From a virus: a stretch of DNA of 22,968 nt. The position numbers and the translations under genes are program-made. The notes beneath the pieces are model-generated. The model was not told the DNA's origin. It did no database searches and saw only the letters and a list, made by a program, of their open reading frames with translations. Below, one piece after another: positions 20,920 through 21,912 of this stretch. The DNA is taken from UHGV virus genome UHGV-0310418. One strand, given 5' to 3'. How positions within the stretch are numbered: position 1 is the stretch's first letter; each line of letters starts with the position of its first letter.

Positions 20920-21912
20920 TCACCCCCTGAATCCTGCCGGGATCTGGCTGTAGTCCACATTGTCGTAACTGGCTTTGAAGTACGGGTCTTCGCGTTTTTC
21001 TGTGTGCGTGCTGACGGACGGCGATAAGCGCAGGGAAAGCTCATCCCATTTTTCCCGCAGCTTCGACGGGCTGAGCACGTTACGGCACCAGAACGGATCG
21101 CGGCTGACGCGGCTGTACATCTCGCAGATTTGTTTGTGAGTACGACCATCCTGCACACACATCAGGCGAATTTCGTTTGCCCAGGCTGTCCAGTTCGGTT
21201 CTTTGGGACGAACCACCTCGCCGTCACATTCGGCAGCCTGCTCGTACAGGGCGATGATTTTTTTCCAGAGCCACTGTGCGCAGGTCAAATCATCCTGCGT
21301 TCCCCACTGGCGCTTTTTAGGGCTGAATACAACCGCATCAGGATGGCGAGTTAAAAACTCCTGTTCAGCCGTTTGCGTGTCCGGTTGCGAAGCGTCCGGA
21401 CGAGAAGAGGTTTTATTCTCTGTAGTAATCTCTGTTGTATTCTCTGTAAGATCATTGGGCCATTTTGACCCGATGACAGCGTGTCGTTTTGAACCAATGG
21501 ATCGTGTCATTTTGCGCCCATCCATCAGGTCACTTTGACCCGATGGAGAAGTGCATTTTGACCTGATGGATTCGTTCACTTTGACCTCTTCTAAAAGCTC
21601 ACTTTCATAGTTGATCGTGTAGAAGTTGGTCATGTCACGCTTCGATTTATTGAGTTGCTCGCGACGCAAAACCCCAAGTGATTTCAGGCTTGCAAATGTG
21701 CGTTTCAGAGTGGACTCTGACCAGAACGGAAACTGCTCCAGCCACTGTTCTGTCGTGTTATAAACCCAGCGAATTCCGCCATGCTCAGTGCCTGAATTCG
21801 TTTCATTCAGCCAGTAATGAAGCTGCTGCAACACAATTGCCTCATTCAGACCAATACGGCATGCAAGATCACGATTTATCACAATGGGCTGGGATGTCAT
21901 TAACAGGCTCAT
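20920..21912 (-). CDS. O: Replication initiator: O-like N-terminal iteron-binding domain fused to DnaT-like C-terminal domain
   Basis: 330 aa; ori iterons lie inside the linker-coding region as in lambda O; the C-terminus ends SQIPAGFRG, like the E. coli DnaT C-terminus (SQIPPGFRG) as recalled; AGAGG Shine-Dalgarno before the ATG. Confidence 0.75.
   Translation of the reverse strand: MSLLMTSQPIVINRDLACRIGLNEAIVLQQLHYWLNETNSGTEHGGIRWVYNTTEQWLEQFPFWSESTLKRTFASLKSLGVLRREQLNKSKRDMTNFYTINYESELLEEVKVNESIRSKCTSPSGQSDLMDGRKMTRSIGSKRHAVIGSKWPNDLTENTTEITTENKTSSRPDASQPDTQTAEQEFLTRHPDAVVFSPKKRQWGTQDDLTCAQWLWKKIIALYEQAAECDGEVVRPKEPNWTAWANEIRLMCVQDGRTHKQICEMYSRVSRDPFWCRNVLSPSKLREKWDELSLRLSPSVSTHTEKREDPYFKASYDNVDYSQIPAGFRG
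21461..21592. repeat. ori: Replication origin iterons: six direct repeats of about 16-18 bp (consensus TCAYTTTGACCYGATGG) at 23-bp spacing, inside the O-like gene
   Basis: CATTTTGACCCGATG (21461), CGTTTTGAACCAATG, CATTTTGCGCCCATC, CACTTTGACCCGATG, CATTTTGACCTGATG, CACTTTGACCTCTTC, starting every 23-24 bp. An adjacent AT-richer stretch with TCTCTGT repeats (about 21400..21460) lies on the downstream side relative to O transcription. Confidence 0.8.

What the first reader, a model, noticed from the sequence alone, without database searches (positions are those of the whole stretch)
20920..21912. Replication initiator combines an O-like iteron binder with a DnaT-like C-terminus; no helicase loader gene follows
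Six 23-bp-spaced iterons are embedded in the linker-coding part of the gene, as in lambda O, but the C-terminus ends SQIPAGFRG like host primosomal protein DnaT. The next gene downstream is PerC-like rather than a P/DnaC/DnaB-type loader. This suggests the initiator recruits the host PriA/PriB/DnaT-DnaC restart primosome directly instead of bringing its own loader.
Basis: partly seen in the sequence, partly recalled or inferred. Interest (0 to 1): 0.5.

Follow-up and report, generated by a model that had tools for sequence, protein, structure and literature searches.

The report
Loader-less lambda-O initiator with DnaT tail
This prophage gene is an ordinary lambda-O-type replication initiator with its origin inside the gene, but its last nine residues copy the conserved tail of host protein DnaT, a tail that in phages goes with DnaC-type helicase loaders or with no loader at all, which suggests how such "O-only" phages borrow the host loader.

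Summary
Window 20920-21912 (- strand) encodes a 330-aa initiator. Six iterons at 23-24 bp spacing and an AT-rich stretch lie in its linker-coding part. It ends SQIPAGFRG, 8 of 9 identical to E. coli DnaT. The next gene is PerC/YfdN-like. No DnaB, DnaC or lambda-P homologue is in the window or in two complete relatives (SfII, mEp460_4F5).

That peptide behaves like a partner code. O-C-domain proteins with W-rich tails were followed by lambda-P in about 64 loci, those with the DnaT tail in none. Of 95 phage proteins ending DxxIPxGFRG, 51 had a DnaC homologue next and none had P or DnaB. 79 of 80 phage dnaC-like genes follow such a tail. Two initiators 76% identical to each other carry different tails and the matching loaders.

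Most likely, by inference only, the tail docks host DnaB-DnaC directly, standing in for DnaT rather than recruiting PriA/PriB/DnaT. This gives a testable handle on two questions the literature calls open.

The parts
20920..21912 (-). Replication initiator gene, 330 aa (lambda-O family; PHROG 391). RefSeq names it 'hypothetical protein'; RAST-style annotations name it 'Primosomal protein I'.
21583..21912 (-). N-terminal part (aa 1-110). Presumed winged-helix origin-binding domain. It matches phage 'replication initiation' PHROGs but not Pfam Phage_rep_O.
   Evidence: helix/strand pattern; low-confidence model
21454..21592 (.). Iteron array: six copies starting at 21454, 21477, 21501, 21524, 21547 and 21570 (23-24 bp spacing). 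Core TCAYTTTGACCYGATGG. Copies 3 and 6 are degenerate. Covers codons 107-153.
21405..21450 (.). AT-rich, strand-asymmetric stretch (GC 0.30) with two 15-nt direct repeats (21410-21424, 21434-21448), next to the iterons. Presumed DNA-unwinding element.
   Evidence: (D8)
21013..21357 (-). Lambda O C-terminal domain (aa 186-300): a short beta-hairpin followed by helices, AF2 pLDDT above 93.
20950..21012 (-). Variable, predicted-disordered linker (aa 301-321). Its length and sequence vary among close homologues.
20923..20949 (-). DnaT-type terminal peptide SQIPAGFRG (aa 322-330).
20915..20928 (-). Gene junction AGGGGG-TGA-GC-ATG. The last two codons (R, G) form a Shine-Dalgarno-like run for the next gene, whose ATG lies 2 nt after the stop. 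E. coli dnaT-dnaC has the same layout (AGAGGG-TAA-CG-ATG).
20429..20917 (-). Downstream gene, PerC/YfdN-like, occupying the position where relatives carry dnaC-like or lambda-P-like loader genes.
21922..22260 (-). Upstream small gene (112 aa, PHROG 1170). A DUF4222-named feature lies under the match in RefSeq relatives, though its position relative to this ORF was not checked. Function unknown.
22257..22922 (-). YmfL/CII-like regulator at the head of the same rightward early operon.

Best explanation
The gene encodes a lambda-O-family replication initiator whose origin lies inside its own coding sequence.

Proposed steps:
1. The N-terminal domain binds the six iterons. This is inferred from family membership and layout.
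2. The adjacent AT-rich stretch is opened (inferred).
3. The replicative helicase is then brought in by a short, disordered C-terminal docking peptide, not by a phage loader. In lambda-type relatives this peptide is W-rich and the next gene is a lambda-P loader. Here it is the DnaT-type peptide ...IPxGFRG, which elsewhere sits directly upstream of DnaC-type loader genes: host dnaT-dnaC, Rac ydaU-ydaV, and many phages.
4. Since this phage has no loader gene, the peptide most likely docks the host DnaB-DnaC complex, or DnaC within it, onto the opened origin.

The initiator would then play DnaT's adaptor role itself and would not need PriA, PriB or DnaT.

Shown here: the domain identities, the iterons, the absence of a loader, and the association between tail type and loader type.
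Inferred: that the tail physically contacts DnaC or DnaB-DnaC, and that the origin fires in this way.
For: Identity of the protein:
- The C-domain profile hits lambda O residues 165-297 at E=3e-55.
- tblastn with lambda O hits the window at E=5e-22.
- PHROG 391 'replication initiation O-like' matches at 1e-101.
- AF2 of aa 186-330 gives a confident domain and a low-confidence tail.

Origin. No DnaA box lies near it.

No loader.

Tail and loader go together:
- In 114 IMG/VR loci with O-C-domain proteins, xTDW tails were followed by lambda-P in 50 of 50 loci with enough flank. WNSxEAW-type tails were followed by lambda-P in about 14 of 14, after I moved by eye six near-variants that the script had put in 'other'. 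The DnaT-type tail was followed by no reference loader in 29 of 29. Counted as 70%-identity clusters, 16 of 17 W-tail clusters have P.
- Of 95 proteins ending DxxIPxGFRG with at least 1 kb of flank, falling into six sequence clusters, 51 have a DnaC homologue beginning immediately after the stop (typically -4 to +6 nt), and none has P or DnaB downstream.
- 79 of 80 phage dnaC-like genes are preceded by such a tail.
- Natural swap: P0016 and P0054 are 76% identical over residues 1-297. P0016 ends DWNSADGWEDVL and is followed by a Phage_lambda_P gene. P0054 ends DTEIPSGFRG and is followed by an IstB/DnaC-type gene. Both lie in the same upstream context.
- K-12 Rac YdaU ends VNTVSLPDSAIPPGFRG, 15 of 17 identical to DnaT, and is followed by YdaV, which is 50% identical to DnaC.
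- Host dnaT is followed by dnaC, usually within -4 to +3 nt, in most of the Enterobacterales genomes sampled.

The tail is under protein-level selection: all synonymous codons are used for I, P, G and F across 157 distinct 3' ends.

A second, unrelated O-only initiator has the same tail. The O protein of phage LLS lacks the O-C domain yet ends DTKIPEGFRG. LLS is a phage grown in the laboratory whose replication module is a single O gene (PMC12315714).
Against: - There is no physical evidence that the tail binds DnaC or DnaB-DnaC. The association could partly reflect co-inheritance of the 3' end of the upstream gene with the dnaC start, since the last two codons double as the ribosome-binding site of the next gene.
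- All true tail-bearing proteins found in bacterial genomes are from Enterobacterales, where DnaC, DnaT, PriB and PriA co-occur. Phyletic patterns therefore cannot single out the partner.
- The 2026 preprimosome paper proposes, speculatively, that the DnaT N-terminal domain recruits DnaB/DnaC, and it does not discuss the tail (PMC13377028).
- Removing DnaT residues 154-179 lowers ssDNA affinity and cooperativity about two-fold (PMC4132743), so a DNA-binding role is possible.
- DopC, which has an O-like HTH and a DnaT C-domain, is paired with a lambda-P-like loader (PMC5509034). Its extreme terminus was not examined here.
- A further O-only class lacks the DnaT tail, so loader-less replication can be achieved in other ways.
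- The loci compared are not phylogenetically independent.
Confidence: 0.5

Rival explanations
1. The DnaT-like terminus plugs the origin-bound initiator into the PriA/PriB(/DnaT) restart preprimosome, which then loads DnaB-DnaC at the opened origin.
For: - The tail is DnaT's.
- These phages are Chi-rich. The window has 9 Chi sites against 0.95 expected, and LLS, mEp460_4F5 and SfII have 20, 14 and 12 top-strand sites.
- Growth of the related O-only phage LLS is helped by RecBCD (PMC12315714). By general knowledge, recombination-dependent replication needs PriA-dependent restart.
Against: - In the preprimosome, DnaT docks on PriA through its globular CTD and on PriB through its acidic linker (PMC13377028). 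Neither element is detectable here.
- A protein that carries DnaT's tail is more likely to replace DnaT than to recruit it.
- The tail tracks DnaC-type loader genes in phages.
Confidence: 0.15
2. The tail is not a loader-docking element. It assists ssDNA binding or self-assembly of the initiator on melted DNA. DnaB is recruited in another way, for example by the O-C domain binding DnaB or DnaB-DnaC directly, as iteron-plasmid initiators do.
For: - DnaT 84-153 binds dT30 about two-fold more weakly and less cooperatively than constructs that keep residues 154-179 (PMC4132743).
- Another O-only class has the O-C domain and no DnaT tail.
Against: - The tail sits on at least four unrelated C-terminal bodies: the O-C domain, the YdaU/DUF1376 type, the LLS-O type, and true DnaT CTD. 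This argues for a common external partner rather than an intramolecular one.
- Tails are strictly exclusive with lambda-P loaders.
- Two initiators 76% identical to each other carry swapped tails with matching loaders.
Confidence: 0.15
3. The terminal residues are conserved at the DNA level only, because they overlap the translation-initiation region of the next gene. The likeness to DnaT has no meaning for the protein.
For: The R and G codons are mostly AGR and GGR, forming a Shine-Dalgarno-like run 2 nt plus a stop codon upstream of the next ATG.
Against: - I, P, G and F are kept through every synonymous codon.
- The motif extends at least 20 nt upstream of the SD-like run.
- The motif persists whether the next gene is dnaC-like, PerC-like, DUF1627 or a methylase.
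Confidence: 0.03
4. The element cannot replicate on its own. It would be a defective module that relies on a loader supplied by a co-resident prophage.
For: Many E. coli strains carry prophage DnaC homologues such as Rac YdaV.
Against: - LLS was propagated on E. coli K-12 in the laboratory (PMC12315714).
- SfII, SfIV and mEp460_4F5 are deposited as complete phage genomes with the same module and no loader.
- The gene is intact in 1715 of 5426 complete E. coli genomes.
Confidence: 0.05

Closest known systems
Phage lambda O/P replication module (ori-lambda inside gene O)
   Same: Two-domain initiator. Iterons and an AT-rich region lie in the linker-coding part of the gene. The C-terminal domain is homologous (profile E=3e-55). 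It occupies the same operon position, after a CII-like gene.
   Different: - The N-terminal domain does not match Pfam Phage_rep_O, and the iteron sequence differs.
- There are six iterons rather than four.
- Lambda's terminal ...LDLTNTDWIYGVDL is replaced by ...SQIPAGFRG.
- No P gene follows.
E. coli DnaT (primosomal protein i) and the dnaT-dnaC operon
   Same: The terminal peptide is 8 of 9 identical. The stop codon, SD-like run and next ATG are arranged in the same way.
   Different: No similarity to the DnaT N-terminal domain was found, no acidic PriB-docking linker was identified, and there is no DnaT three-helix CTD. The next gene is PerC-like, not dnaC.
Rac prophage YdaU-YdaV and similar phage pairs of an initiator with a DnaC-type loader
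   Same: The initiator ends in the DnaT-type peptide. Some pairs use the very same O-C-domain initiator body, for example P0054 at about 73% identity.
   Different: Those elements carry their own DnaC homologue directly downstream. The window phage does not.
'O-only' lambdoid phages (phage LLS; 34 of 314 Enterobacterales lambdoids in Zheng et al. 2025, PMC12315714)
   Same: The replication module is a single O homologue with no helicase or loader. The genome is Chi-rich. The nearest complete relative of the window region, mEp460_4F5, is the phage whose CI and Cro are closest to those of LLS.
   Different: LLS O has a different C-terminal body with no O-C domain, but the same DnaT-type tail. 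That paper states that replication of this phage type is not yet understood and, in the passages read, does not describe the tail.
DopC/DopE of Cellvibrionales and Oceanospirillales (Brezellec et al. 2017, PMC5509034)
   Same: An O-like HTH protein in which a DnaT-related C-terminal element replaces part of the O architecture.
   Different: DopC has the DnaT C-domain (HHpred against 2ru8), has no iterons, and is paired with a lambda-P-like loader. Here only the terminal peptide is DnaT-like and the O C-domain is retained.
Iteron-plasmid initiators (pSC101 RepA, R6K pi, RK2 TrfA)
   Same: By general knowledge, these initiators bind iterons and use host DnaB-DnaC without encoding a loader.
   Different: They are unrelated in sequence. 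Most also need DnaA boxes, and none is near this ori.

Membership tests
Lambda-O-family phage replication initiator | C-terminal domain homologous to lambda O residues ~165-297 | tested here: met
   A profile built from 114 representatives of the window's C-domain hits lambda O at E=3e-55. tblastn of lambda O residues 171-270 against the window gives 38% identity, E=5e-22.
Lambda-O-family phage replication initiator | Origin (iterons plus AT-rich region) inside the gene, between the two domains | tested here: met
   Six repeats at 23-24 bp spacing over codons 107-153, with no shuffle of 100 reaching the count, and an adjacent stretch of GC 0.30. The layout matches the annotated lambda ori.
Lambda-O-family phage replication initiator | N-terminal domain of the Phage_rep_O type (PF04492) | tested here: not met
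   No Pfam hit at E<=0.1. The protein does match PHROG 391 'replication initiation O-like' over its full length (1e-101) and other initiator PHROGs over residues 1-110. In this family the C-domain is joined to many different winged-helix N-domains.
Lambda-O-family phage replication initiator | Cognate loader (lambda P) or helicase gene immediately downstream | tested here: not met
   The next gene is PerC-like. No P, DnaC or DnaB homologue was found in the window or in complete relatives.
Lambda-O-family phage replication initiator | Sequence-specific iteron binding and origin firing | not testable with these tools
   This needs EMSA or footprinting and a mini-replicon assay.
DnaT (PF17948, primosomal protein i) | Three-helix ssDNA-binding C-terminal domain (residues ~89-153) | tested here: not met
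DnaT (PF17948, primosomal protein i) | N-terminal oligomerisation domain and acidic PriB-docking linker | tested here: not met
   BLASTP against DnaT aligns only the last 9 residues significantly. No Pfam family matched.
DnaT (PF17948, primosomal protein i) | Conserved terminal peptide SePDxqIPpGFRG | tested here: met
   SQIPAGFRG is 8 of 9 identical to DnaT. The motif is at least 90% conserved in 107 DnaT sequences. It is also conserved among homologues of the window protein despite a variable linker.
DnaT (PF17948, primosomal protein i) | Gene immediately upstream of dnaC | tested here: not met
   The PerC-like gene occupies that position. The junction layout is otherwise the same.
'O-only' lambdoid replication module (Zheng et al. 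2025) | Lambdoid genome whose replication module has an O homologue but no helicase or loader | tested here: met
   Window genes from the CII-like gene to Q were all assigned. tblastn was negative in the window and in the complete SfII and mEp460_4F5 genomes. Definition taken from PMC12315714.
Initiator plus DnaC-type loader modules (Rac YdaU/YdaV type) | DnaC homologue starting within a few nt of the initiator's stop codon | tested here: not met
   Absent here. Present in the 73%-identical relative P0054 and in 51 of 95 tail-bearing phage loci.

The most novel reading that the evidence does not exclude
The conserved C-terminal peptide of DnaT (...PDxxIPxGFRG) is the element through which the restart preprimosome engages DnaC or DnaB-DnaC, which has so far not been identified. 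It is a portable docking module that phage initiators of several unrelated families have acquired. Phages that keep the peptide but have lost or never had a dnaC-like gene, such as this prophage, SfII, SfIV, mEp460_4F5 and LLS, load the host helicase with the host's own DnaC. More generally, the last ~10-15 residues of lambdoid initiators would form a 'loader code': W-rich tails for lambda-P, and the IPxGFRG tail for DnaC.
Probability: 0.4. Interest if true: 0.75.

Novelty: new variant of a known kind. Interest (0 to 1): 0.6.

Why it matters
Two recent papers state open questions that this locus bears on. Zheng et al. 2025 (PMC12315714) report that 34 of 314 Enterobacterales lambdoid phages have only an O gene, and that replication of this phage type is not yet understood. 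Windgassen et al. 2018 (PMC5778457) and Ducos et al. [quoted passage not shown] The gene is also very common, being full-length in 1715 of 5426 complete E. coli genomes, and RefSeq still calls it 'hypothetical protein'.

If the tail-and-loader pattern holds, the type of helicase loader a lambdoid phage uses, host or phage-encoded, could be read from the last residues of its initiator.

Tried and rejected
2. The full-length AF2 model built from 10 close homologues was poor (pLDDT 54) and was not used for fold searches. The C-domain model built from 110 diverse sequences was good.
3. The afdb50 fold library was unavailable. The viral library returned only phage replication proteins.
4. No DnaA box lies within about 3 kb of the ori, so there is no sign of DnaA-assisted firing.
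5. A genome-wide scan for the tail outside Enterobacterales, meant to separate DnaC from PriA/PriB as partner, found only chance matches in ORFs under 55 aa. It was uninformative.
6. The supplementary tables of Zheng et al. 2025, which list the 34 O-only phages, are not held. The tails of that panel could not be tabulated.
7. No paper in the library holds 'PGFRG' in a replication context, and none describes a DnaT-tail/DnaC contact.
8. I considered the tail as a mimic of the SSB C-terminus (DDDIPF) or of a beta-clamp-binding motif. These rest on memory only. The Phe here is not C-terminal and the motif does not fit QLxLF. Neither idea could be tested.
9. The 'SD-only' explanation of tail conservation was rejected on synonymous-codon variation.
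Full report
WHAT IS THERE

The window is the right arm of a lambdoid prophage of E. coli. It carries lambda-type head and tail genes, a lysis cassette, Q, and an early rightward operon transcribed on the - strand. The region 20400-22968 is 98.6% identical to phage mEp460_4F5 and about 97% identical over part of its length to Shigella phages SfII and SfIV. In those records the gene is annotated variously as 'Primosomal protein I', 'DNA replication protein O' or 'primosomal protein'. RefSeq calls it 'hypothetical protein'. It is present at full length in 1715 of 5426 complete E. 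coli genomes.

- The ORF 20920-21912 (-) encodes 330 aa ending SQIPAGFRG. E. coli DnaT, fetched from MG1655, ends SQIPPGFRG, and BLASTP aligns these nine residues at 8 of 9.
- Six repeats in one register start at 21454, 21477, 21501, 21524, 21547 and 21570. The consensus CAYTTTGACCYGATGG with up to 3 mismatches has 6 matches in the window, 5 of them in the array, against 0.81 expected. None of 100 shuffles reached that count. Copies 3 and 6 are degenerate.
- The array spans codons 107-153. In gene orientation it is followed by a GC 0.30 stretch holding two 15-nt repeats. This is the order found in ori-lambda.
- The next gene is PerC/YfdN-like. After it come Dam, a LexA DNA-binding-domain protein, RusA, KilA-N, DUF968/HNH and Q.
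- tblastn with E. coli DnaC, DnaB and lambda P finds nothing below E=0.05 in the window or in the complete SfII and mEp460_4F5 genomes (annotations).

WHAT THE C-TERMINUS REALLY IS

A phmmer search of the 1.84-billion-protein representative library with residues 186-330 found 2695 representatives at E<=1e-3. Most are ~300-aa proteins with the match at their C-terminal end. A profile of 114 of them hits lambda O residues 165-297 at E=3e-55 and E. coli DnaT at E=0.63.

Members of this family carry many different winged-helix N-domains, including HTH_36, Phage_rep_O, DUF1376 and DnaD_N.

AlphaFold2 with a 110-sequence alignment gives a confident domain (pLDDT above 93 for model residues 1-110) made of a short beta-hairpin and helices. 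The last ~35 residues have low confidence.

- Foldseek against the PDB gives nothing at E<2.
- DnaT is listed in neither.
- The viral structure library returns phage replication proteins.
- Pfam's DnaT model does not match, profile-profile hhalign gives 14% probability, and sequence searches of the PDB are empty.

So the globular C-domain is lambda O's. Only the terminal peptide is DnaT-like. That peptide is nevertheless real. IPxGFRG is at least 90% conserved in 107 DnaT sequences. It is kept among the window protein's homologues while the preceding linker changes in length and sequence. It is maintained through all synonymous codons of I, P, G and F in 157 distinct 3' ends.

THE TAIL GOES WITH THE LOADER

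The representatives of the O-C family end in a few recurrent peptides. These are lambda's ...NTDWIYGVDL type, a ...HWNSxEAWENxL type, and the DnaT type.

Sample 1. I scanned IMG/VR with a back-translated O-C motif and recovered 114 complete ORFs.
- xTDW tails were followed by a lambda-P homologue in 50 of 50 loci with enough flank.
- WNSxEAW-type tails were followed by lambda-P in about 14 of 14. This count includes six near-variants that the script had classed as 'other' and that I moved by eye.
- The DnaT-type tail was followed by none of DnaC, DnaB or P in 29 of 29.
- At the level of 70%-identity clusters, 16 of 17 W-tail clusters have P.

Sample 2. I scanned IMG/VR for ORFs ending DxxIPxGFRG-stop and recovered 120 loci. 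All but two yielded a tail-bearing ORF, some truncated by a contig end, and they form six sequence clusters. The clusters include O-C-domain proteins, a YdaU-like group, a 358-aa type, and proteins with a true DnaT CTD (E about 1e-38). Of the 95 with at least 1 kb downstream, 51 have a DnaC homologue (E about 1e-75) beginning immediately after the stop, typically -4 to +6 nt. None has P or DnaB.

Reverse test. 79 of 80 phage dnaC-like genes are preceded by an ORF ending [IV]PxGFRG.

Known anchors.
- K-12 Rac YdaU ends VNTVSLPDSAIPPGFRG, 15 of 17 identical to DnaT. Its neighbour YdaV is 50% identical to DnaC.
- Host dnaT is followed by dnaC, usually within -4 to +3 nt, in most of the Enterobacterales genomes sampled.

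The cleanest case is a natural swap among close relatives of the window protein. P0016 and P0054 are 76% identical over residues 1-297 and then diverge. P0016 ends DWNSADGWEDVL and is followed by a Phage_lambda_P gene. P0054 ends DTEIPSGFRG and is followed by an IstB/DnaC-type gene. Both lie behind the same Cro and YdaT genes. The window protein is the third state: DnaT-type tail and no loader.

LINK TO THE LITERATURE

- Zheng et al. 2025 (PMC12315714) describe phage LLS, whose replication module is a single O homologue. They note that 34 of 314 Enterobacterales lambdoids are like this and that replication of this phage type is not yet understood. The CI and Cro of LLS are closest to those of mEp460_4F5.
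- I fetched LLS. Its O protein has no O-C domain, yet it ends MKFGPVDTKIPEGFRG. An unrelated O-only initiator thus carries the same tail.
- Like LLS, the window is Chi-rich, with 9 sites against 0.95 expected, 7 of them on the - strand.
- Brezellec et al. 2017 (PMC5509034) had noted an O-like HTH joined to a DnaT C-domain in DopC, paired with a P-like loader. That is a different chimera.
- Reviews and the 2026 preprimosome structure state that no DnaT-DnaC interaction has been documented and that the recruitment mechanism is unknown.
- Removal of DnaT residues 154-179 only modestly weakens cooperative ssDNA binding.
- I found no paper describing the tail motif.

MECHANISM

Best supported: the initiator binds its iterons and opens the AT-rich element as lambda O does. 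This is inferred from homology and layout. Its disordered tail then docks host DnaB-DnaC, so that no phage loader, and no PriA, PriB or DnaT, is needed. This step is inferred from the association between tail type and loader type. I put this at about 0.5.

Rivals:
This is disfavoured because the DnaT elements that contact PriA and PriB are absent here.
- The tail aids ssDNA binding or self-assembly, and DnaB is recruited otherwise (about 0.15).
- The module depends on a helper prophage's loader (about 0.05).
- Conservation is purely at the DNA level, for the next gene's ribosome-binding site (about 0.03). This is rejected by the codon data, although the last two codons do form the SD-like run.

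CAVEATS

- The loci are not independent samples.
- Reference-based detection would miss loaders unrelated to DnaC, DnaB or P. Pfam and PHROG assignments of every gene in the window's operon argue against one here.
- Another O-only class exists, with an O-C domain plus a ~60-aa extension ending ...AWNSIWKQAxEMxQE. The DnaT tail is therefore not the only route to a loader-less module.
- No physical interaction has been shown.

VERDICT

The object is a new variant of a known kind: a lambda-O-family initiator whose partner-docking tail has been exchanged for DnaT's, in a module without a loader. Interest is moderate to high, because it turns two questions that the literature calls open into simple experiments.

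Noticed in passing
window 13083-22797 (9 sites: 13083, 17443, 17572, 17843, 19147, 20043, 20399, 22547, 22790): Chi sites (GCTGGTGG) are about ten-fold over-represented: 9 against 0.95 expected, with no shuffle of 100 reaching 9. Seven are on the - strand, which is the transcribed strand of the early operon. Complete relatives show the same bias in top/bottom counts (LLS 20/3, mEp460_4F5 14/3, SfII 12/2). This matches the 'no Rec module, high Chi' lambdoid class of PMC12315714.
   Followed up: partly
L407 (phage LLS, PQ299149) 34213-35067: The sole replication protein of the laboratory-grown O-only phage LLS has no lambda O C-domain, yet it ends ...DTKIPEGFRG, the DnaT-type tail. In the passages read, the LLS paper does not mention this.
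   Followed up: yes
L528 3501-5197 and L529 3501-5219: Two initiators that are 76% identical over residues 1-297 carry different terminal peptides (DWNSADGWEDVL and DTEIPSGFRG). They are followed by a lambda-P-type and a DnaC-type loader gene respectively, behind the same Cro and YdaT genes. This is a natural tail-and-loader swap.
   Followed up: yes
L228, L239, L271, L279, L312 (IMG/VR loci): A third kind of O-C-domain initiator (358-379 aa) has a ~60-aa extension ending ...AWNSIWKQAxEMxQE. Dam or KilA-like genes follow it, and no DnaC, DnaB or P homologue does. This is another apparently loader-less module with a different C-terminus.
   Followed up: partly
window 20915-20928; L001 around 2976-2990: The last two codons of the initiator (AGG GGG) form a Shine-Dalgarno-like run for the next gene, whose ATG lies 2 nt after the stop. 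E. coli dnaT-dnaC has the same arrangement (AGA GGG TAA CG ATG). Across 157 distinct 3' ends, R is AGR in 78% and the final G is GGR in 78%.
   Followed up: yes
window 19453-19779 (-): A 108-aa protein consists of a LexA DNA-binding domain only (PF01726, 2.9e-19; TIGR00498 over residues 1-91 of the 203-position model). It has no S24 peptidase domain, so it would be an uncleavable LexA-like repressor inside the early operon.
   Followed up: no
window 15169-15384 (-), 11906-12121 (-), 11058-11324 (-): The prophage carries two cold-shock-domain genes (CSD, about 1e-31 each) and a GnsA/GnsB-family gene, located in and after the late/lysis region.
   Followed up: no
L406 (E. coli K-12 Rac) 2120-3730: YdaU is annotated only as a 'DUF1376 domain-containing protein'. 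It ends with a 17-residue stretch that is 15 of 17 identical to the DnaT terminus, and it is followed after 6 nt by YdaV, which is 50% identical to DnaC. Rac thus carries a DnaT/DnaC-like gene pair.
   Followed up: yes
window 20429-20923 (-): The PerC/YfdN-like protein has an N-terminal ~100-aa part (PHROG 23071, unknown function; weak MarR-like and Ren-like matches) in front of the PerC motif. It sits exactly where relatives carry the loader gene.
   Followed up: no
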